Assembly: GCF_000010625.1 (NCBI RefSeq)
Contig: NC_010296.1
Span: 5,280,001 to 5,312,000 of the forward strand
Source of the DNA: Microcystis aeruginosa NIES-843
GTDB lineage: Bacteria > Cyanobacteriota > Cyanobacteriia > Cyanobacteriales > Microcystaceae
Direction: 5' to 3'
Length of the DNA: 32,000 nucleotides
The notes under the pieces are model-generated. The model was not told where the DNA came from. It made no database searches and worked only from the letters and a program-made list of their open reading frames with translations. The translations under genes were made by a program, and so were the position numbers. This document shows, one piece after another, positions 23,803 to 31,259 of the stretch. Within the stretch, counting starts at the first letter, position 1; each line of letters starts with the position of its first letter.

Positions 23803-24481
23803 TTATAGGTTAACATCTTGCCAATTTAAAGCTGCTGCGAATCCCTGAAAATGTTTGACATTGGTAGTAGCGATGACTAGATAACGGCTCGGATATTGTT
23901 TTTTTAATAACTGCCAATGAGCAAGAATAATAATATCTACGTCAATATTGTAATTATCAGCCGTTTGTTGGCCAATCTTTCGAGTTTCTACCCAAATTTG
24001 TGACGATTCTAACATCACCTCGGTATCTAAATTTAAAAAATCAATGACATTGCGTAATTCATTAAGATTATCTAGGCTATTAAAGGAATTTTTCTTGACC
24101 GATTCTAATAATCGGCTTCTTCTGACTTCATAATCACAGCTATCGGAACTAACTACATAGGGTTTGCTGAATAAATCTAAAAACCTTGTTGGATAAGACT
24201 TTTAGACTTGTTTTCCCTCAAAAAGTGCCGACCTTTGGAGTGATTGGGGGGAAAATCCCTGGACTTTTTCCCTGAAAATTAGGTAATTGACCACCTGAAA
24301 ATCGGTAAAACCCCACGCCCCACACCCCACACCCCACACCCTGCCCCTAGGAAAAGCTTTTTCAGCAAACCCTACATAAGCACCCTTAGACAAAAGTGAA
24401 TAAGGCCAATCTTCCCAGTTTACCCGCTTTTTTAGGATGAGTTAATCAACCCAAAACCCCCGAATCGATAAAGACAATCAT
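23803..24481 (-). pseudogene. PIN-domain (VapC-like) toxin gene carrying three lesions
   Basis: ATG 24481 overlaps the upstream antitoxin stop as ATGA. The N-terminus reads MIVFIDSGVLG, then an in-frame TGA (24448..24446). The frame changes across the T6/A6 run at 24428-24433. A 213-bp MITE is inserted at 24160-24372. The remaining frame continues as ...YVVSSDSCDYEVRRS...LESSQIW...ATTNVKHF. Confidence 0.8.
24160..24372. mobile_element. 213-bp MITE, copy 1
   Basis: Terminal inverted repeats GGGTTTGCTGAATAAA / GGGTTTGCTGAAAAAG (reverse complement of the right end). Flanked by 6-bp direct repeats TACATA (24154-24159 and 24373-24378). Contains an internal (CCCCACA)n tract. Confidence 0.85.
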
Positions 24482-24726
24482 CCTTGGCTATAAAGCTTTG
24501 AACCCAAAGGACGATCATTATCAATCGCAGTCTGAAAATTGAGGAAAGACTGGGAAATTTCTTGGTCTTGCTCATCGGTTATTTGTGACCGTTTTTGTCG
24601 TCTTTGTTCTAAGATAGCCAAAGCCGAACGATTTCGTTTAATTTGCTCTTTTCGATCCCAATCTGGATAATTGACAAGTTTGGCTTTTAAGGTTCTTCCG
24701 AACTTACACTGTAGAAAAGTCCCCAA
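24478..24726 (-). CDS. Putative antitoxin partner of the PIN toxin
   Basis: 82 aa or shorter (the TTG start is uncertain). Its stop overlaps the toxin ATG. Small and charged, with a typical upstream-antitoxin position. Confidence 0.5.
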   Translation of the reverse strand: MGTFLQCKFGRTLKAKLVNYPDWDRKEQIKRNRSALAILEQRRQKRSQITDEQDQEISQSFLNFQTAIDNDRPLGSKLYSQG

Positions 24727-25378
24727 GCTCCCTCTCTGTCCAGCAATGTTCTAAAGTTGATAAATATCAATCTAACAAAAACTCAAAGCCTTATTGTACA
24801 AGCTTTACAAGCATAAGTTGTTGATAGTTTTGCATGACAGGTTCGGTAGAGCCGGTTTTAATTGATTCATCTCTTTAACTGGAAATTGTCTATCATCATC
24901 TTAGCCGATCCTTTGACCAAGAACAAGAGGTAACAGGGGGTGCATCTCATTTTTGTAAATCTACTGAGTTGGGATTTTTAAAGGGAAACTCTCTGCTAAA
25001 ATTGGGCATTACTTCCGATTTTATCACTCAATCAAAGCCTTAACCCCCCCGTCAGGGGAGGAGCTTCGTCCCCCGAACCTTTGACTAACTAATAGAGTTC
25101 AACCTCTTAATTTTATTTTAACAGACAACAATTATAAAATTTTATTTTGATAATAAATCGGGTCAATTTTTCTTTTCAGCGATCGCCCTATAGCTGACCG
25201 CATAATTCTTTTGTACTAAACTTTGAGGTTTGCAATAGGGGGTAAATACAGAAACGAAAATTCTCTCTAAATCTCCTCAAATTTCCAGAAACCTTCTGAC
25301 TCCCTCTAGCTAGATGGTTAAAATAAGTAGCTTTTAAGGGAGATAGATTTTGAGAGGGTTATCAGCTACAATCAAGAC

Positions 25379-25565
25379 ATGAAGCTAGTTGAACGCCATA
25401 TCATACTAAATCCCATCCTTGCTGGTCAGAAATTGACCGAGCTGCTTTTTTGTCAAAAAATCTGTTCAATCTAGCTAATTACCACTATCGCCAATATTTC
25501 TTTGTTGAACACAAGAAATTAAATTTTAATCAACTCTATCACCAAGTAGCTCAAAGTTCTGATTT
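25379..25565 (+). pseudogene. tnpB: 5' remnant of an IS200/IS605-family tnpB (OrfB) gene
   Basis: MKLVERHII... then, after a frameshift near the T-run at about 25443-25450, ...SKNLFNLANYHYRQYFF..KLNFNQLY. From memory this matches TnpB N-termini. It is truncated at about 25565, where the island repeat cassette begins. Confidence 0.6.
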
Positions 25566-25634
25566 ACTATTTTATCGGATTGCCGCGCTTGCCGAAGGCA
25601 CTGGGGAGCAGACTGCTGATTCAATTGGGTAAGG
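25564..25634 (-). repeat. Island cassette, copy A (orphan, no downstream P gene)
   Basis: Near-identical to 27968-28050 and 29461-29543, but it lacks the gene-proximal about 12 nt. Confidence 0.85.
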
Positions 25635-25659
25635 CAAACCCTAATTAGTGAGAGGAGAA

Positions 25660-25759
25660 TCACCACCACAACCGACTCACTTCCCTAATACCTTGATACA
25701 CTTCTCTTAAGGCGACCAGTCCCCCAAAATGAAGGATTAAAGGCAGGTTAGAAATAGTT
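25660..25759 (-). pseudogene. 3' fragment of small gene X (homologue of 28076..28264)
   Basis: Encodes ...LILHFGGLVALREVYQGIREVSRLWW*. It has no start codon, and the homology ends at the hicA 3' end. Confidence 0.45.
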
Positions 25760-25972
25760 TTAGAGTAATTTTAAGAATTCTTCGATAGTTAAACCCGCTT
25801 CTTTAACAATCCCTGCCATTGTATAAGCATTAACCGGATTTGCTCGTGGAATGGCGATAGTCTGTTCTCCATTTGTCATAGTAATATGTTTTCTCTGTCT
25901 AGTGATGCGGAATCCCGCTTTTTCAAAGGCATTAACAGTGCGTAGATGATTAATTCTGGGTAATTTTGGCCT
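25760..25972 (-). pseudogene. hicA: HicA-family toxin, copy 1, separated from hicB by a MITE
   Basis: Encodes RPKLPRINHLRTVNAFEKAGFRITRQRKHITMTNGEQTIAIPRANPVNAYTMAGIVKEAGLTIEEFLKLL*. It has no start codon. The MITE inserted 5 nt upstream of the first conserved codon. Confidence 0.7.
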
Positions 25973-25977
25973 ACTTA

Positions 25978-26190
25978 GGGGCTGCTGAAAAAGTTTTTCG
26001 TGGGGGCAGGGTGTGGGGTGTGGGGTGTGGGGTGTGGGGTTTTACCCATTTTCAGGTGGTCAATTACCTAATTTTCAGGGAAAAAATCCCTAAATTTTCC
26101 CCCCAATCACTCCAATGGTAGGCACTTTTTCAGGGAAAAAAAGTCTAAAAGCCTTATCCAACAAGGTTTTTAGATTTATTCAGCAAACCC
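25978..26190. mobile_element. 213-bp MITE, copy 2 (inverted relative to copy 1)
   Basis: Flanked by TACTTA direct repeats (25972-25977 and 26191-26196). The uninterrupted paralogous junction at 29881-29886 has a single TACTTA, so it serves as an empty site. Confidence 0.9.
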
Positions 26191-26193
26191 TAC

Positions 26194-26388
26194 TTATCCT
26201 ACTTCTACATAACGCACTTCCGCATCTTTGTTTAATTCTTCAATTGTCTCTAAATAGTCTTGTATCGCTTCTTTGATATTTTCTATAGCTTCTGCTTCAG
26301 TGTCTCCCTGTGACCAACATCCGGGTAAACTGGGACACCAAATTGCATAACCTTCTTCGCTTTGTTTGAGTCGAACTTGATAGCGCAT
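26194..26388 (-). CDS. hicB: HicB-family antitoxin (UPF0150-like), copy 1
   Basis: 64 aa, MRYQVRLKQSEEGYAIWCPSLPGCWSQGDTEAEAIENIKEAI... Confidence 0.85.
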   Translation of the reverse strand: MRYQVRLKQSEEGYAIWCPSLPGCWSQGDTEAEAIENIKEAIQDYLETIEELNKDAEVRYVEVG

Positions 26389-26495
26389 AAATAGTGGCTG
26401 TTAGTTTGTAACTTTTATACTAAGGTCTAATTGATTAAAGATAAAGTATTGATAATTGTCCATTATCCCTGAGAAAAGCGTTCGCCTTTGAGGTT

Positions 26496-27188
26496 TTAAT
26501 AGATTTGAGGTTGAAAATTATCGGGAATATCTAATTCAAATACTTGGTCATGAATCCGAGCCACATAAAACCCTTCTTGGAGAATTTTTTCCCGTAATCC
26601 TGGTGATAAATCAACCGCCGCTAATATGCCATAGAGTTTTTTATCTTTGTGTTCAGAGAAAAAGCTACGAAACCGTTGTAAAATACTTTTTAATTGTGTA
26701 ATAGATTCCTCTTTGGCATGACTTTTAACCTCAACGATATAGGCGGTATTTAGCTCACCATTGGTATAGGCAAGGACATCAATTTCTAGGTGTTGTCCAT
26801 TTTTACTGACTCGCACACTGGGACTAACAACTTCCATACCAAAGCGTTGCCTGAGAATCGTTTCCATTGAGGGAAGGGCAAGTCCTTCGGTAAAGCTGCC
26901 GAATTTTGCCCCGAGTCCCCCAATTTGCTGTCCTAATTCTTTGAGTTGTTTGTCAGTTTTCTTCTGTTGTTGGGCGTTTTCCTTCTGTTGTTGACTAACT
27001 TCCTTCAATAGTAGGTCAGTCTCCTTCAGTTGTTTGTCAGTTTCCTTGAGTTGTTGAGCGTTTTCTTTCTGTTGTTGACTGACTTCCTTGAGTTGTTTGT
27101 CAGTTTCTTTTTGAGCAGCAGTTAATTCGGCTTGAGCAGTTGCTAATTCGGCTAGGATTCGCCATACGTCTTCTGATGTAGTCGTCAT
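26496..27188 (-). CDS. Coiled-coil + PD-(D/E)XK-like protein, paralogue P1 (DUF3782-like N-terminus, from memory)
   Basis: 230 aa. Residues about 24-85 form a Q/K/E-rich heptad repeat. The C-terminal domain has LEID137VL...IVE153VK155SH. Confidence 0.85.
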   Translation of the reverse strand: MTTTSEDVWRILAELATAQAELTAAQKETDKQLKEVSQQQKENAQQLKETDKQLKETDLLLKEVSQQQKENAQQQKKTDKQLKELGQQIGGLGAKFGSFTEGLALPSMETILRQRFGMEVVSPSVRVSKNGQHLEIDVLAYTNGELNTAYIVEVKSHAKEESITQLKSILQRFRSFFSEHKDKKLYGILAAVDLSPGLREKILQEGFYVARIHDQVFELDIPDNFQPQIY

Positions 27189-27301
27189 AGATGATTTTTT
27201 CTCTCTGATTTGGTCTATTACTATTTTACTGAATTTTGCCGATTCATGAATAAGAGAGTGTTTTTTCCTTTGGGGAAGATAGAGCGATAGCCTTTGATGT
27301 T

Positions 27302-27952
27302 TTAATAGGTTTGAGGTTGAAAATTATCGGGAATATCTAATTCAAATACTTGGTCATGAATCCGAGCCACATAAAACCCTTCTTGGAGAATTTTTTCCCG
27401 TAATCCTGGTGATAAATCAACCGCCGCTAATATGCCATAGAGTTTTTTATCTTTGTGTTCAGAGAAAAAGCTACGAAACCGTTGTAAAATACTTTTTAAT
27501 TGTGTAATAGATTCCTCTTTGGCATGACTTTTAACCTCAACGATATAGGCGGTATTTAGCTCACCATTGGTATAGGCAAGGACATCAATTTCTAGGTGTT
27601 GTCCATTTTTACTGACTCGCACACTGGGACTAACAACTTCCATACCAAAGCGTTGTCTGAGAATCGTTTCCATTGAGGGGAGAGCAAGTCCTTCGGTAAA
27701 GCTGCCGAATTTGGCTCCGAGTCCCCCAATTTGTTTGCCCAGTTCTTTGAGTTGTTTGTCAGTTTTCTGCTGTTGTCGGTCAGTTTCCTTGATTTGTTGG
27801 GCGTTTTCCTTCTGTTGTTGACTGACTTCCTTCAATAGTAGGTCAGTTTCCTTGAGTTGTTTGTCAGTTTCTTTTTGAGCAGCAGTCAATTCGGCTTGAG
27901 CAGTCGCTAATTCGGCTAAGATTCGCCATACGTCTTCTGATGTAGTTGCCAT
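27302..27952 (-). CDS. Coiled-coil + PD-(D/E)XK-like protein, paralogue P2
   Basis: 216 aa. From GGLGAKFG onward the C-terminal domain matches P1 in protein sequence except at the penultimate residue (T in P2, I in P1). Confidence 0.85.
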   Translation of the reverse strand: MATTSEDVWRILAELATAQAELTAAQKETDKQLKETDLLLKEVSQQQKENAQQIKETDRQQQKTDKQLKELGKQIGGLGAKFGSFTEGLALPSMETILRQRFGMEVVSPSVRVSKNGQHLEIDVLAYTNGELNTAYIVEVKSHAKEESITQLKSILQRFRSFFSEHKDKKLYGILAAVDLSPGLREKILQEGFYVARIHDQVFELDIPDNFQPQTY

Positions 27953-27967
27953 AGATGATTTTTTCCC

Positions 27968-28050
27968 GATGTCACCTATTCACTATTTTATTGGATTTCT
28001 GCGCTTGCCGAAGGCACTGGGGAGCAGACTGCTGATTCAATTGGGTAAGG
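27968..28050 (-). repeat. Island cassette, copy B (upstream of P2), promoter-like
   Basis: 83 bp. On the minus strand it contains CCAATAAAATAGTGAATAGGTGACATC with a TAAAAT -10-like hexamer about 30 nt before the P2 ATG. Confidence 0.8.
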
Positions 28051-28075
28051 TGGAGGCTAATTCATAGAACAAGAA

Positions 28076-28264
28076 TCACCGCCACCAGCGACTAACATCC
28101 CTAATCCCTTGATACACTTCTCTTAAGGCGACCAGTCCACCAAAATGAAGGATTAAAGGGACTAAGTTGGGAATAGTTTCGAGGGAAGAAGGACGAGTGA
28201 GACTCCCCAAAGCTTGAAGGGTATTTTCCCAGAAGGATAGGTCAACATGGTTAGGCGTTAACAC
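28076..28264 (-). CDS. Small hypothetical protein (gene X), the only full-length copy
   Basis: 62 aa with a GTG start. Its C-terminal roughly 27 aa are conserved at protein level in two truncated copies. I recognise no family. Confidence 0.4.
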   Translation of the reverse strand: MLTPNHVDLSFWENTLQALGSLTRPSSLETIPNLVPLILHFGGLVALREVYQGIRDVSRWWR

Positions 28265-28310
28265 CTGAGTTATAATTGGAACGAAAATTAACTAAGGCAG
28301 TTGTTCTCAA

Positions 28311-28511
28311 ATGAAATTAAAGGAAAGGTATATCACCGATGAGCAGGGTAATCGAATAGGTGTTCTTTTAGATATAGAAGAATATCAGAAACTGCTGGAA
28401 GAATCGGAGGAGTTAGATGCCATTAGAGCCTATGATTTAGCTGTCTCAGGTGAGGATGATGAAATTCCTTTTGAAGCAGCGATCACTGAAATTGAAAATA
28501 GCCAGCAATGA
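28311..28511 (+). CDS. Phd/YefM/RelB-like antitoxin
   Basis: 66 aa, MKLKERYITDEQGNRIGVLLDIEEYQKLLE..., with an acidic C-terminus. Its stop overlaps the toxin ATG as ATGA. Confidence 0.65.
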   Translation: MKLKERYITDEQGNRIGVLLDIEEYQKLLEESEELDAIRAYDLAVSGEDDEIPFEAAITEIENSQQ

Positions 28512-28761
28512 GTTACAATATTACTATTAAAAAACGTGCTTCTAAGGCTTTAGCAAATCTCCCAAAAGATGATTATCAAAAATTCGAGATGGCATTAGAG
28601 AATTAGCCGAAAATCCAAGACCATCAGGATGTCTAAAACTGACAGTAAGAGAAGGTTGGCGGGTTCGGATTGGAGTTTATCGAATTATTTATGGTATCGA
28701 TGATTCAGAAAAGAAGGTGATTGTTCTTGATATTGGGCATCGAAAGGATATTTACCGCTAA
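28508..28761 (+). pseudogene. RelE/ParE-family toxin with a frameshift in an A-run
   Basis: Reads MSYNITIKKRASKALANLPKDDYQK, then a premature TAG at 28614-28616. Adding one A to the A5 run at 28578-28582 restores ...IRDGIRELAENPRPSGCLKLTVREGWRVRIGVYRIIYGIDDSEKKVIVLDIGHRKDIYR*. Confidence 0.8.
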
Positions 28762-28815
28762 ATACAAGCAATCATCCCTCACAATATCAGAGCAAAAGCG
28801 ATCACCTTTGATGTT

Positions 28816-29445
28816 TTAATAGATTTGAGGTTGAAAATTATCAGGAATATCGAGTTCAAATACTTGGTCATGAATCCGAGCCACATAAAACCCTTCTTGC
28901 AGAATTTTTTCGCGTAATTCGTTCGATAAGTCAACCGATGCTAGTATGCCATAGAGTTTTTTGTCTTTGTGTTCAGGAAAAAAGCGGCGAAACCGTTGCA
29001 AAATACTTTTTAATTGTGTAATAGACTCTTCTCTGGCATGACTTTTAACCTCAACGATATAGGCAGTATTTAGCTCACCATTGGTATAGGCAAGGACATC
29101 AATTTCTAGGTGTTGTCCATCTTTACTGACTCGCACACTGGGACTAACCACTTCCATGCCAAAGCGTTGTCTGAGAATCGTTTCCATTGAGGGGAGAGCA
29201 AGTCCTTCGGTAAAGCTGCCGAATTTGGCTCCGAGTCCCCCAATTTGTTTACCTAATTCTCTGAGTTGTCGGTCGGTTTCCTGTTGTCGTCGCTCGGTTT
29301 CCTTCTGTTGTTGGGCGTTTTCCTTCTGTTGTTGACTAACTTCCTTCAGTTGTTTGTCAGTTTCTTTTTGAGCAGCAGTTAATTCAGCTTGAGCAGTCGC
29401 TAATTCGGCTAAGAGTCGCCATACGTCTTCTGATGTAGTTGCCAT
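28816..29445 (-). CDS. Coiled-coil + PD-(D/E)XK-like protein, paralogue P3
   Basis: 209 aa. This is the most diverged copy, but the same D...ExK motif is retained. Confidence 0.85.
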   Translation of the reverse strand: MATTSEDVWRLLAELATAQAELTAAQKETDKQLKEVSQQQKENAQQQKETERRQQETDRQLRELGKQIGGLGAKFGSFTEGLALPSMETILRQRFGMEVVSPSVRVSKDGQHLEIDVLAYTNGELNTAYIVEVKSHAREESITQLKSILQRFRRFFPEHKDKKLYGILASVDLSNELREKILQEGFYVARIHDQVFELDIPDNFQPQIY

Positions 29446-29460
29446 AGATAATTTTTTCCC

Positions 29461-29543
29461 GATGTCACCTATTCACTATTTTATCGGATTGCCACGCTTG
29501 CCGAAGGCACTGGGGAGCAGACTGCTGATTCAATTGGATAAGG
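29461..29543 (-). repeat. Island cassette, copy C (upstream of P3)
   Basis: 83 bp, near-identical to copy B. Confidence 0.8.
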
Positions 29544-29568
29544 CGGAGGCTAATTCATAGAACAAAAA

Positions 29569-29668
29569 TCACCGCCACCAGCGACTAACATCTTTAATAC
29601 TTTGATACACTTCTCTTAAAGCTACCTCCCCCCCAAAATGAAGGATTAAAAGCAGGTTAGAAATAGTT
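29569..29668 (-). pseudogene. 3' fragment of small gene X
   Basis: Encodes ...LILHFGGEVALREVYQSIKDVSRWWR*. It is truncated at the same junction with hicA as copy A. Confidence 0.45.
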
Positions 29669-29887
29669 TTAGAGTAATTCTAAGAATTCTTCGATAGTTA
29701 AACCCGCTTCTTTAACAATCCCTGCCATTGTATAAGCATTAACCGGATTTGCTCGTGGAATGGTGATAGTCTGTTCTCCATTTGTCATAGTAATATGTTT
29801 TCTCTGTCTAGTGATGCGGAATCCCGCTTTTTCAAAGGCATTAACAGCGCGTAGATGATTAATTCCGGGTAATTTTGGCCTACTTAT
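29669..29887 (-). CDS. hicA: HicA-family toxin, copy 2, with no canonical start codon (possible AUA start)
   Basis: Reads (I)SRPKLPGINHLRAVNAFEKAGFRITRQRKHITMTNGEQTITIPRANPVNAYTMAGIVKEAGLTIEEFLELL*. No ATG, GTG or TTG lies between the upstream in-frame stop and the conserved N-terminus. The ATA at 29887..29885 overlaps the hicB TAA as ATAA. Confidence 0.6.
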   Translation of the reverse strand: MSRPKLPGINHLRAVNAFEKAGFRITRQRKHITMTNGEQTITIPRANPVNAYTMAGIVKEAGLTIEEFLELL

Positions 29888-30078
29888 TCTACTTCTACAT
29901 AACGCACTTCCGCATCTTTGTTTAACTCTTCAATTGTCTCTAAATAGTCTTGTATCGCTTCTTTGATATTTTCTATAGCTTCTGCTTCAGTGTCTCCCTG
30001 TGACCAACATCCGGGTAAACTGGGACACCAAATTGCATAACCTTCTTCGCTTTGTTTGAGTCGAACTTGATAGCGCAT
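29884..30078 (-). CDS. hicB: HicB-family antitoxin, copy 2
   Basis: 64 aa. It differs from copy 1 only at the last residue. Confidence 0.85.
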   Translation of the reverse strand: MRYQVRLKQSEEGYAIWCPSLPGCWSQGDTEAEAIENIKEAIQDYLETIEELNKDAEVRYVEVE

Positions 30079-30151
30079 AAATAGTTACTGTAGTATTTGC
30101 TAGAGTAGGAGCATTCCATTTGAGATAATTTATCTATCTCTTTATACTAAA

Positions 30152-30529
30152 CTAATGTGTATTAAGCCAGTGGCTTGCTTGTTCTACAAATACTGTGGCG
30201 TATTCTAAGGCAATTTTTGTTTGTTCCCTAGTTATTTCAATAACTTGATCATAATCTCCTAATTGTCGTAAATCATAGGTAATTCTTAATGCTTTTGATA
30301 GTTCTAATGATAATTCACCTGTTTGAATAAAATGTTGAGAAAATTGCTGTCGTACCCCTCGATGACTGCGAGTATTGATATTTTTAACTATTAACAGAGC
30401 TTGGACTGTACAATAAATGGCATAATAGCAACGAGAAATACAAGCACGATAATAATTTTTTTCAAGTAATAGGGTGGCCGCTTCTAATTCTTCATTAGCT
30501 TGATTGATATAGGACGAAATTTGGTTCAC
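30152..30529 (-). CDS. HEPN-domain protein (toxin of an MNT-HEPN pair)
   Basis: 125 aa and all-helical in character. The ...SHRGVRQQF... and LRQLGDYD segments are typical of small HEPN proteins (from memory). Its GTG start overlaps the MNT stop as GTGA. Confidence 0.75.
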   Translation of the reverse strand: MNQISSYINQANEELEAATLLLEKNYYRACISRCYYAIYCTVQALLIVKNINTRSHRGVRQQFSQHFIQTGELSLELSKALRITYDLRQLGDYDQVIEITREQTKIALEYATVFVEQASHWLNTH

Positions 30530-30852
30530 AGGACAATCCCTTCTCGGCGAATATTGTCCATTAATGGGGTTTGTCGATGAACAAAGTCTTCATCGGCGAT
30601 GGGAATCAAAGAAATGAAGGTATTATATTTAAGGTCTAGTTGAGTAGCGATGTCTGCCATCCGAATCACTTCATCTCCAGGGGAAATGGGCCCCTTTAAT
30701 ACGACCATAATATCAATATCTGAGTCCTCATTGGCGTTACCCCGCGCTTGTGAACCAAAAAGGATGAGTTTTACTAACCGTTTTCCATAAAACTTTGCTA
30801 ATTCTTGGCGAAATTCTTGTAGTATGGGCATTAGGATTTGTAATTGAGCCAT
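30526..30852 (-). CDS. Minimal nucleotidyltransferase (MNT) antitoxin
   Basis: 108 aa with the motif GSQARGNANEDSDIDIMVV (GSxxRG...DxD). Confidence 0.85.
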   Translation of the reverse strand: MAQLQILMPILQEFRQELAKFYGKRLVKLILFGSQARGNANEDSDIDIMVVLKGPISPGDEVIRMADIATQLDLKYNTFISLIPIADEDFVHRQTPLMDNIRREGIVL

Positions 30853-30898: not shown

Positions 30899-30930
30899 GA
30901 TGTCACTTATTCACTATTTTATCGGATTTT
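30899..30930 (-). repeat. Island cassette core, copy D (upstream of MNT-HEPN)
   Basis: gatgtcacttattcactattttatcggattt matches the gene-proximal roughly 31 bp of cassettes B and C with one mismatch. Confidence 0.75.
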
Positions 30931-31037
30931 TGCGATTGCGTAGGGAGTGTGGAAAGATGGGGAGGAATGCGATCGCCAATGAAATGTGGATGGGTCATTC
31001 ATTCGACGGCTCATAGCGTTCTAAACTTTTAATAAAA

Positions 31038-31259
31038 TCATCGTTTTTCTTCTCGCCATGCTGCTTGACGGATAGATTCAGGGGTGATATTTCTGTTTTC
31101 CCACAATCCTGCTAGGGCAAAGAAGTCTTGCTCGTTATCAGATAATGTTGTTTGATCTTCGATGATTTCTACAGAGTCAACAAAATCTAAAGCAGTTAAA
31201 ATTTTAGAGAGTGTTTCTGCTTTTTCTTGGTCACGAATGTGTACGATTAGTTGTTTCAT
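31038..31259 (-). CDS. Small acidic protein, antitoxin-like, with no adjacent toxin
   Basis: 73 aa. From memory, the C-terminal FFALAGLWENRNITPESIRQAAWR resembles small cyanobacterial proteins found upstream of PIN toxins. Confidence 0.35.
   Translation of the reverse strand: MKQLIVHIRDQEKAETLSKILTALDFVDSVEIIEDQTTLSDNEQDFFALAGLWENRNITPESIRQAAWREEKR

What the first reader, a model, noticed from the sequence alone, without database searches (positions are those of the whole stretch)
25564..30090. Repeated modular unit: [TA module]-[gene X 3' end]-[83-bp cassette]-[nuclease-like gene], with different TA modules at the same junction
Read on the minus strand, the island is built of units. Unit C is hicB2-hicA2, the X fragment, cassette C and P3. 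Unit B is the (opposite-strand) phd/relE pair, full-length X, cassette B, P2 and P1. Unit A is hicB1-[MITE]-hicA1, the X fragment and cassette A, with no P gene. The hicBA + X fragment + cassette block is duplicated (about 25564-26400 versus about 29461-30090), with the same hicA/X junction in both copies. In unit B an unrelated TA pair occupies the equivalent position next to an intact X. About 25-35 bp downstream of each P stop codon is also conserved (aagcg.t...cctttga.gttttaatag). So the cassette-plus-P unit of about 0.75-0.8 kb looks like a duplicating module. The position 5' of it looks like a hotspot where TA modules are swapped. Alternatively, the cassette-P unit may itself be a selfish mobile unit.
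Basis: partly seen in the sequence, partly recalled or inferred. Interest (0 to 1): 0.65.

Follow-up and report, generated by a model that had tools for sequence, protein, structure and literature searches.

The report
Recombination-scrambled toxin-antitoxin and nuclease gene island
The repeated units are real, but they are duplicated and recombined pieces of a highly variable Microcystis island of toxin-antitoxin and nuclease genes, in which "gene X" is only the leftover 3' end of a large STAND NTPase gene; this is a tidy example of known genome plasticity, not a new mobile element.

Summary
Window 25562-30091 contains three units built from hicBA or relBE, an X piece, a spacer ("cassette") and a DUF3782 gene. 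A 43-nt core is identical in all three units.

The window is Microcystis, more than 99% identical to M. viridis NIES-102.

- "Gene X" is not a gene. It is a relic of the last 61 codons, terminator-like hairpin and about 30 nt of 3' UTR of a 1126-aa Trypsin/NB-ARC (STAND) gene that lies just beyond the window end.
- The "cassette" is that 3' UTR, a 45-nt island-specific core, and the promoter and 5' UTR of P.
- P is a coiled-coil PD-(D/E)XK nuclease from a very large multicopy family. Its paralogs share only about 45 nt upstream and about 25 nt downstream, and I saw no terminal repeats or target duplications.
- The three units are mosaics of one another: 39 informative sites fall in 12 runs (permutation p<1e-5).
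- Related strains show at least ten architectures of this island. X relics are truncated at five or more different points, and the X end is followed by five different modules.

Best reading: decayed and duplicated [STAND 3' end-module] units, reshuffled by homologous and illegitimate recombination. The swap-hotspot idea is partly supported. The selfish cassette-P element is not. Interest is modest.

The parts
25562..25659 (-). Spacer ('cassette') A. It has the STAND 3' UTR and the 45-nt core, but is cut just after the -10 box (…AAAATAGTAA|ATCAG), and no P gene follows.
   Evidence: In another strain (L005/L088) the same unit is followed by a P gene.
25660..25770 (-). X relic A: roughly the last 35 codons of the STAND gene, joined directly to the hicA stop codon.
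   Evidence: tblastn.
25763..25969 (-). hicA1. The canonical ATG is replaced by AGG, and a MITE separates it from hicB1.
   Evidence: HicA_toxin was assigned on the intact homolog.
25969..26192 (+). 224-nt MITE inserted between hicB1 and hicA1, an inverted copy of 24158-24381. It is absent at this site in NIES-102.
   Evidence: (I1, 91%), (flanking CTACTTA).
26194..26388 (-). hicB1 antitoxin.
   Evidence: PF15919, E = 2.3e-10.
26496..27188 (-). P1, DUF3782 coiled-coil PD-(D/E)XK nuclease, 230 aa.
   Evidence: About 200 nt of its 3' half (alignment columns 401-600) are 100% identical to P2.
27189..27301 (-). P2-P1 spacer of the 'tandem P' type. It carries the family-wide P promoter and 5' UTR but no X piece or core.
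27302..27952 (-). P2, DUF3782 nuclease, 216 aa.
   Evidence: AF2 model pLDDT 81; Foldseek gives NucS/EndoMS, Card1 and Can2.
27953..28075 (-). Spacer ('cassette') B: STAND 3' UTR, 45-nt core, then P promoter and 5' UTR.
28076..28264 (-). X relic B: the last 61 codons of a STAND (Trypsin/NB-ARC/TPR) gene, truncated where the divergent relB begins. A terminator-like hairpin sits at the stop codon.
   Evidence: 86.7% nt identity to the 3' end of the 1126-aa gene in L001.
28311..28511 (+). relB-like antitoxin.
   Evidence: PF18506, E = 8.2e-8.
28508..28770 (+). relE/parE toxin pseudogene (frameshift).
28770..28815 (-). Conserved 3' flank of P3. It contains a HIP1-like GATCGC motif and overlaps the relE 3' end on the other strand.
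28816..29445 (-). P3, DUF3782 nuclease, 209 aa.
29446..29568 (-). Spacer ('cassette') C.
29569..29679 (-). X relic C: roughly the last 35 codons, with the same hicA junction as relic A.
29669..29883 (-). hicA2 (AGG in place of ATG).
29884..30078 (-). hicB2 antitoxin.
30152..30852 (-). MNT (30526-30852) and HEPN (30152-30529) toxin-antitoxin pair, the module upstream of unit C.
   Evidence: PF01909 and PF05168.
30899..30939 (-). Fourth, partial copy of the spacer: only its promoter-proximal 30-40 nt (ATCCGATAAAATAGTGAATAAGTGACATC), here upstream of MNT.
   Evidence: (D7).

Best explanation
The segment is part of a strain-variable island of addiction/defence modules in Microcystis. The island lies between a Trypco2-associated Trypsin/NB-ARC (STAND) NTPase gene, just past the window end, and obg.

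Its building blocks are [3' end of a STAND gene + short 3' UTR]-[module]. The module is either a TA pair (hicBA, Phd/ParE, MNT/HEPN, UPF0175/DUF3368) or a DUF3782 coiled-coil PD-(D/E)XK nuclease gene (P) with its own promoter.

Most STAND copies have decayed to 3' relics of differing length; these are 'gene X' and its 'fragments'. The '83-bp cassette' is simply what lies between the relic's stop codon and P: the STAND 3' UTR, an island-specific 45-nt core, and the promoter and 5' UTR of P.

The three units in the window arose by segmental duplication. They have since exchanged patches by gene conversion or unequal crossing-over between the X relics, the spacers and the P paralogs. Illegitimate deletions and MITE/IS insertions added further change.

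Shown: the anatomy, the identity of X, the mosaicism, and the variation between strains.

Inferred:
- RecA-type homologous recombination is the engine.
- The spacer carries the P promoter.
- Relic 3' ends persist because deletions reaching the downstream antitoxin promoter or gene would be counter-selected (the addiction property of TA modules).
For: - Source: the window is more than 99% identical to M. viridis NIES-102, apart from MITE/IS indels.
- X identity: X is 86.7% identical at the nucleotide level to the 3' end of the 1126-aa gene L001:448-3828. That gene has Trypsin_2, NB-ARC, APAF1_C and TPR domains. The same C-terminus ends long ORFs in L029 (at least 719 aa), L009 and L008.
- X relics in databases: 56 protein clusters matched the X C-terminus. 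All are 44-130 aa, every one that carries a source organism name but one (a Chroococcales MAG) is Microcystis, and several are named 'apoptotic protease-activating factor, partial'.
- Relic 5' ends: at codons 1, 14, 21, 27-29 and 40, each in a different upstream context. Partly deleted STAND bodies also survive (L003, L006, L032, L063).
- Relic 3' side: the stop codon and about 30 nt of shared 3' UTR are followed by P, Phd/ParE, hicBA, MNT/HEPN or UPF0175.
- Architectures: at least ten versions of the island exist, for example P-X14-MNT/HEPN-obg (L015, L066, L083) against the long version in the window.
- Mosaicism of units A, B and C: 39 informative sites support the three groupings 16:11:12, in 12 runs. 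None of 100000 permutations gave as few runs.
- Gene conversion between P genes: about 200 nt of the P1 and P2 3' halves are 100% identical, while P2 and P3 are 84-97% identical.
- P gene family: all paralogs share about 45 nt containing TAAAAT upstream and about 25 nt downstream. Beyond that the flanks fall into at least five unrelated classes.
- A terminator-like hairpin sits at the X stop codon.
- P fold is PD-(D/E)XK (PMC4786415).
Against: - No intact 'STAND-spacer-P' arrangement was recovered, so the ancestral unit is inferred rather than seen.
- Two independent junctions, hicA/X and DUF3368-codon-7/X, fall within about 6 nt of each other in X.
- hicBA keeps the same 5' edge, 12-16 nt before the ATG, in four different contexts, and has AACTATTT on both sides. 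Both features hint at something more site-directed than random breakage.
- The strict promoter scan did not call a sigma-70 promoter in the spacer.
Confidence: 0.65

Rival explanations
1. The spacer-plus-P unit (about 0.8 kb) is a selfish element spread by its own nuclease, like a free-standing homing endonuclease gene that drags its flanks along.
For: - P has a PD-(D/E)XK nuclease fold.
- The family is very large and multicopy: more than 4000 clusters at 90% identity, several per genome, often in tandem.
- It is 60-75% identical across phyla.
- Short conserved flanks exist.
- P is present or absent at otherwise identical sites: unit A with P in L005 but without it in the window, and P deleted in L008/L009.
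Against: - The spacer core is confined to this island type.
- P paralogs elsewhere have unrelated upstream sequence beyond about 45 nt.
- The P-less sites have different, non-reciprocal end points. One is cut in the -10 box. The other runs from spacer position 47 to 3'-flank position 17.
- I saw no terminal repeats or target duplications.
- Homing needs homologous flanks in the recipient and would not create new junction types.
Confidence: 0.1
2. The X end is an att-like site of an integron-like, site-specific cassette system. Modules are captured immediately behind the STAND gene, and each carries a copy of the site.
For: - Five different modules start within about 15-40 nt after the same X stop codon and 3' UTR.
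- Modules are tightly trimmed; the hicBA edge is at -12 to -16 in four contexts.
- AACTATTT flanks hicBA on both sides.
- Two junctions cluster at X codons 27-29.
- A precedent exists for a repeat-fenced TA module behind a protease gene in Microcystis (PMC7935541).
Against: - No integrase or recombinase gene is called in about 20 kb of the island.
- X relic lengths vary from 20 to 61 codons, whereas site-specific recombination gives fixed repeats.
- Junctions downstream of X also vary in position.
- The X piece plus spacer has no attC-like symmetric structure; its fold z-score is -1.6.
- Rfam finds nothing.
Confidence: 0.1
3. This is only a recent local tandem duplication in one lineage, and the junctions have no wider significance.
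For: - The spacer core 20-mer is nearly absent from other species representatives.
- The window's three-unit arrangement is shared almost base for base by a set of close relatives (L001, L004, L084, L085, L087).
Against: - The units are 81-99% identical rather than near-identical, and they are mosaic.
- The same blocks occur singly, and with different neighbours, in M. novacekii, M. wesenbergii and many bloom contigs.
- X relics are widespread in Microcystis.
Confidence: 0.1

Closest known systems
Strain-variable TA/defence islands and the 'highly plastic' Microcystis genome (Frangeul 2008, PMC2442094; Humbert 2013, PMC3741299)
   Same: A dense run of type II TA pairs (HicBA, RelBE/ParE, Phd/ParE, MNT/HEPN, UPF0175/DUF3368), MITE and IS insertions, decaying toxin genes, and content that differs between near-identical strains.
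   Different: Here the modules are separated by relics of one particular gene end (a STAND NTPase 3' end), and they alternate with a multicopy nuclease gene. To my knowledge that specific pattern has not been described; I did not run a literature search aimed at it.
TA module fenced by two 152-bp direct repeats downstream of the orthocaspase gene MaOC1 in M. aeruginosa PCC 7806 (PMC7935541)
   Same: Same genus. A TA pair lies directly behind a large 'death-type' protease gene and is bracketed by direct repeats. Its presence varies between strains.
   Different: Those repeats are identical intergenic elements with internal inverted repeats. Here the repeats are coding-sequence relics of the upstream gene, are of unequal length, and are 80-95% identical.
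Integron cassette arrays / CALINs
   Same: A string of compact, mostly promoter-poor modules, many of them TA pairs, separated by a recurring sequence, with cargo differing between strains.
   Different: There is no integrase and no attC-like imperfect palindrome. The repeat length is variable, and the repeat derives from a protein-coding gene.
Tandem genomic islands at tRNA genes, which leave repeated 3' tRNA fragments
   Same: An intact gene sits at one end of the island, and partial 3' copies of it recur between successive modules.
   Different: That pattern is made by tyrosine integrases and gives fixed-length repeats. No integrase is present here, and the relic lengths differ.
DUF3782 family: coiled-coil stalk plus PD-(D/E)XK endonuclease (Hartmann et al. 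2016, PMC4786415)
   Same: P1-P3 hit PF12644. They have an N-terminal heptad coiled coil and a C-terminal D...E-V-K nuclease core with a NucS/Card1-like fold.
   Different: No function is known for the family. The Microcystis copies are massively amplified and vary in stalk length in 7-residue steps.

Membership tests
DUF3782 / coiled-coil PD-(D/E)XK endonuclease (P1-P3) | Match to PF12644 above the gathering score | tested here: met
   31.3-32.8 bits against a cut-off of 24.4 for all three proteins.
DUF3782 / coiled-coil PD-(D/E)XK endonuclease (P1-P3) | Restriction-endonuclease-like fold with a conserved D...(D/E)xK core | tested here: met
   AF2 pLDDT is above 80 over residues 91-216. Foldseek top hits are NucS/EndoMS (2vld, 5gke), Cdn1, Card1, Can2 and AF1548, with E-values from 5.6e-5 to 3e-3. 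D123, E139 and K141 are invariant in 42 sequences.
DUF3782 / coiled-coil PD-(D/E)XK endonuclease (P1-P3) | Nuclease activity | not testable with these tools
   Needs biochemistry.
Type II toxin-antitoxin modules (hicBA, relBE) | Adjacent small antitoxin and toxin genes with family matches | tested here: met
   HicB_lk_antitox and RelB-like. HicA_toxin and ParE_toxin were matched on an intact homolog from L003 (hicA) and on a frameshift-corrected reading of the window gene (relE).
Type II toxin-antitoxin modules (hicBA, relBE) | Intact toxin reading frames in this window | tested here: not met
   relE is frameshifted. Both hicA copies lack the ATG, and one is also separated from hicB by a MITE.
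Transposon / MITE-like mobile element (for the spacer-P unit) | Constant ends, terminal inverted repeats, target-site duplication, dispersed copies | tested here: not met
   - Ends differ between copies.
- No inverted repeats were reported at the unit ends.
- The core 20-mer occurs in only two other representative genomes, always in the same island type.
Integron / attC cassette array | Integrase nearby; attC-type imperfect palindromes of fixed organisation at each cassette 3' end | tested here: not met
   - No integrase among the called genes of L001 or L084.
- No significant structure in the X piece plus spacer.
- Variable repeat length.
Homing endonuclease gene (free-standing) | Nuclease cuts the endonuclease-free allele at or near its own insertion site; presence/absence at a constant site | tested here: inconclusive
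   Presence/absence is seen, but the end points are inconsistent. Cleavage specificity cannot be tested here.
Structured non-coding RNA (for the 83-110-nt spacer) | Rfam match, or a fold more stable than shuffles with covariation | tested here: not met
   - No Rfam hit at E <= 1.
- Fold z-score is -1.64.
- The copies are too similar to show covariation.

The most novel reading that the evidence does not exclude
The repeated STAND-gene 3' ends are not mere debris. They would act as portable homology ('landing pads') that let Microcystis capture, duplicate and swap TA and nuclease modules directly behind an NLR-like STAND gene. This would be an integrase-free, recombination-driven cassette system. 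It might have a preferred crossover region around X codons 27-29 / AACTATT, and the TA modules' addiction property would protect each junction.
Probability: 0.15. Interest if true: 0.6.

Novelty: new variant of a known kind. Interest (0 to 1): 0.33.

Why it matters
It gives a concrete, base-level picture of how one Microcystis defence/addiction island is remodelled. Relics of a single STAND gene end recur between modules and supply homology for duplication, deletion and exchange.

That is useful for three things: annotation, since dozens of 44-130-aa 'hypothetical' or 'Apaf, partial' ORFs are in fact relics; interpreting strain variation in blooms; and choosing loci for testing recombination-driven cassette shuffling.

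It also flags the DUF3782 nuclease family as heavily amplified, length-variable and horizontally spread, yet functionally unknown. It does not reveal a new kind of mobile element or mechanism.

Tried and rejected
- **Structured RNA or riboswitch in the spacer.** Rfam at E <= 1 found nothing, and the fold is no more stable than shuffled sequence.
- **Dispersed mini-element.** An exact 20-mer of the core hit only two other species-representative genomes. The roughly 28-nt core indel seen in L003 and in the type-3 spacers therefore looks like a local indel, not a dispersed repeat.
- **Diversity-generating retroelement (template/variable repeat).** I considered this because a gene 3' end is repeated. 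I dropped it because no reverse transcriptase is called in the island and the differences I inspected by eye between copies did not look adenine-specific; I did not tabulate them.
- **X as a real small gene.** Pfam and PADLOC gave nothing. tblastn and ORF extension showed it is the C-terminus of long STAND ORFs.
It gave no match. Direct alignment showed the flank is nevertheless conserved.
- **Known defence-system models for P.** There were only weak PADLOC hits (CARF_PDDEXK 1.3e-4, coiled-coil JetC), so no membership can be claimed.
- **PDB sequence search for P.** It returned only coiled-coil noise.
- **8-bp direct repeat AACTATTT around hicBA as a target duplication.** It is too short and AT-rich, and the sequence 5' of hicB is not X-like. 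I left this as a weak lead.

Full report
**1. What is in the sequence**

- Unit C is hicB2 (29884-30078), hicA2, an X piece (29569-29679), a spacer, and P3 (28816-29445).
- Unit B is a divergent relB (28311-28511) with a frameshifted relE, then X (28076-28264), a spacer, P2 (27302-27952), and P1 (26496-27188) after a 113-nt spacer.
- Unit A is hicB1 (26194-26388), a 224-nt MITE (25969-26192), hicA1, an X piece (25660-25770) and a truncated spacer, with no P gene.

The repeat finder gives 98% identity for the hicB blocks, 90% for hicA-3'/X/spacer, and 91-99% for the P 3' halves. A 43-nt spacer core is identical in all three units, where chance predicts 0.00 matches.

The last 30-40 nt of the spacer recur upstream of the MNT/HEPN pair at 30899-30939. 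Both hicA copies carry AGG where a relative has the ATG start.

Family assignments: HicB, RelB-like, MNT, HEPN, and DUF3782 for P1-P3; HicA and ParE on an intact homolog (hicA) and a frameshift-corrected sequence (relE).

**2. Where it comes from**

P2 is encoded on Microcystis viridis NIES-102 (AP019314.1). The window aligns to that region at 98.6-99.95%. It differs by mobile-element indels:
- the MITE between hicB1 and hicA1 is absent in NIES-102;
- NIES-102 has a 1.3-kb IS, with a 368-aa transposase, inside X;
- NIES-102 has a 93-bp insert in HEPN.

The window is therefore from a very close relative of NIES-102.

**3. What 'gene X' is**

In NIES-102, about 4 kb beyond the window's right end, a 1126-aa gene ends with a sequence 86.7% identical at the nucleotide level to X. 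That protein has Trypsin_2, NB-ARC, APAF1_C and TPR matches, and a Trypco2 gene precedes it.

I extended every X-like tblastn hit in 90-odd related loci to its upstream stop codon.
- The same C-terminus closes long ORFs: 1128 codons in L001, at least 719 in L029, and at least 212-220 at the contig edges of L008 and L009.
- Elsewhere it survives as relics that start at codon 1, 14, 21, 27-29 or 40. Each start is fused to a different upstream sequence: the relB leader, a P 3' flank, the hicA stop codon, the first seven codons of the DUF3368 gene, or MITE-like DNA.

A protein search with the C-terminus returned 56 clusters. All are 44-130 aa, every one that carries a source organism name but one (a Chroococcales MAG) is Microcystis, and several are named 'apoptotic protease-activating factor, partial'. 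X is therefore a gene relic, and the 'X fragments' are shorter relics of the same end. A terminator-like hairpin overlaps the X stop codon.

**4. What the 'cassette' is**

I aligned 26 distinct copies of X piece plus spacer and compared what follows the X stop codon in different contexts. The spacer has three parts.
- About 30 nt of STAND 3' UTR. This part is also recognisable where the X end is followed by Phd/ParE, hicBA, MNT/HEPN or UPF0175.
- A core of about 45 nt, found only in this island type. About 28 nt of it are deleted in one L003 copy, and it is replaced by other sequence in a 'type 3' spacer (L027, L029, L063).
- The P promoter and 5' UTR, with an invariant TAAAAT about 35-40 nt before the ATG.

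Rfam found nothing, and the RNA fold is not unusual (z = -1.6). The strict sigma-70 scan did not call a promoter in the spacer, so the promoter role is inferred from conservation and position.

**5. What P is, and whether spacer-P is a mobile unit**

P has a long N-terminal heptad coiled coil built from 21-nt repeats. Its C-terminal domain has invariant D123, E139 and K141.

The AlphaFold model has mean pLDDT 81. Its best PDB matches are NucS/EndoMS, Cdn1, Card1, Can2 and AF1548, which places it in the PD-(D/E)XK fold. This agrees with how the DUF3782 family is described in PMC4786415.

The family is very large. There are more than 4000 clusters at 90% identity, with several copies per Microcystis genome, often in tandem. 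Relatives 60-75% identical occur in Methylococcaceae and other bacteria, as single genes near TA pairs, IS elements or an integrase.

Across 56 distinct upstream and 73 distinct downstream flanks, paralogs share only about 45 nt before the ATG and about 25 nt after the stop codon (TAAAACATCAAAGGCGATCGCTTTT). Beyond that the flanks fall into several unrelated classes.

The spacer core 20-mer hit only two other species-representative genomes, M. novacekii and M. wesenbergii. Each has a single hicBA-X-spacer-P unit.

P-less versions of a unit have different end points. The window's unit A is cut inside the -10 box, whereas L005/L088 still has a P gene there. L008/L009 join spacer position 47 to position 17 of the 3' flank.

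I saw no terminal repeats, target duplications or recombinase gene. The 'selfish cassette-P unit' reading is therefore not supported.

**6. Evidence for recombination**

The three units in the window are mosaics of each other. Over the roughly 200 nt they share there are 39 informative sites.
- 16 sites group B with C, 11 group A with C, and 12 group A with B.
- The sites lie in contiguous blocks, giving 12 runs. None of 100000 permutations gave as few.

P1 and P2 are 100% identical over about 200 nt of their 3' halves, while P2 and P3 are 84-97% identical there.

Between strains the island takes at least ten forms. Examples:
- P-X(14-61)-MNT/HEPN-obg (L015, L066, L083);
- P-P-P-X-MNT/HEPN-MITE-obg (L012);
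- STAND-X-hicBA-X'-ΔP-relEB-X-spacer-P (L008, L009);
- STAND-X-Phd/ParE-UPF0175-[DUF3368 codons 1-7 fused to X27-61]-P-P (L029);
- Trypco2-STAND(1-98)-hicA-X'-spacer-P (L032);
- the long form in the window.

Both upstream partners of the X end (an intact STAND gene, or the relB-truncated relic) occur with more than one downstream partner: intact STAND with Phd/ParE or hicBA, the relB-truncated relic with Phd/ParE or spacer-P. I take this as evidence of exchange within X.

**7. Most likely mechanism**

The island is best explained as an array of [STAND 3' end]-[module] units. The STAND copies have decayed to relics. The X relics, spacers and P paralogs now serve as homology for unequal crossing-over and gene conversion. 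Microhomology deletions and MITE/IS insertions add further variation.

The anatomy, relic identity, mosaicism and strain variation are shown. The recombination pathway is inferred. Also inferred is the idea that relic 3' ends persist because deletions reaching a TA promoter or antitoxin would be lethal.

Three features do not fit simple random breakage:
- two independent junctions lie within about 6 nt of each other in X;
- the hicBA 5' edge is constant, 12-16 nt before the ATG, in four contexts;
- AACTATTT occurs on both sides of hicBA.

These keep a site-directed capture model alive at low probability.

**8. Comparison with what is known**

Microcystis genomes are known to be extremely plastic and rich in TA systems, MITEs and IS elements (PMC2442094, PMC3741299). 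A TA pair fenced by 152-bp direct repeats behind the orthocaspase gene MaOC1 has been reported in PCC 7806 (PMC7935541).

The present case is the same kind of thing with one twist: the recurring boundary is a relic of the upstream STAND gene itself.

It fails the membership tests for transposon/MITE, integron and structured RNA. P passes the tests for DUF3782 and the PD-(D/E)XK fold.

**9. Verdict**

- I class it as a new variant of a known kind, of modest interest.

Noticed in passing
window 24158-24381 and 25969-26192: Two inverted copies (91% identical) of a 224-nt MITE that carries CCCCACA/GGGTGTG heptamer runs. They are flanked by CTACATA and CTACTTA respectively. The copy at 25969 is absent in NIES-102, and further copies lie in many related loci.
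   Followed up: partly
window about 24685-24859: A stretch of about 165-175 nt that is absent at this site in NIES-102 (L001). It is present at 93% identity, in the opposite orientation, inside the relBE pair of L009. It is probably a second small MITE family.
   Followed up: partly
window 26937-27107, 27743-27871, 29265-29354 (5' parts of P1, P2, P3): Imperfect 21-nt tandem repeats encode the heptad coiled coil. Family members come in lengths of 152-244 aa that mostly differ by multiples of 7 residues. This suggests stalk-length variation by repeat slippage or recombination.
   Followed up: partly
window 29878-29883 and 25964-25969 (hicA starts); 28508-28770 (relE): The toxin genes are decaying. 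Both hicA copies have AGG instead of ATG (NCBI calls an ATA start in NIES-102), and relE has a 1-nt frameshift. The antitoxin genes are intact.
   Followed up: partly
window 30899-30939: The same 30-40-nt promoter-like piece (ATCCGATAAAATAGTGAATARGTGACATC) precedes both P2/P3 and the unrelated MNT/HEPN pair. In other strains MNT is instead preceded by an X relic plus 3' UTR. This may be a shared or transferred promoter segment.
   Followed up: partly
window 24727-25561: A stretch of about 830 nt downstream of spacer A has no ORF of 40 aa or more, apart from one that overlaps the spacer. It is conserved at more than 99% only in strains with the same island type. Its origin was not determined.
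   Followed up: partly
L001 8520-9826 and 6239-6333 (NIES-102, corresponding to window about 28118-28127 and 30305/30306): NIES-102 carries a 1.3-kb IS (368-aa transposase ORF) inside the X relic, with about 10 bp duplicated, and a 93-bp insert splitting HEPN. Both are absent from the window.
   Followed up: partly
L092-L096 (Methylovulum and other non-cyanobacterial contigs): DUF3782 nucleases about 58-69% identical to the Microcystis proteins occur as single genes next to Phd/PIN, MazE/PIN, Uma2, IS21 or an integrase. This points to horizontal spread of the family between phyla.
   Followed up: no
window 23803-24018, 24478-24726 and 31038-31259: Three small conserved ORFs (71, 82 and 73 aa) in the island have no Pfam hit; the 71- and 82-aa ORFs also gave no PADLOC hit (the 73-aa ORF was not scanned against PADLOC). 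From their position they could be unrecognised TA components.
   Followed up: partly
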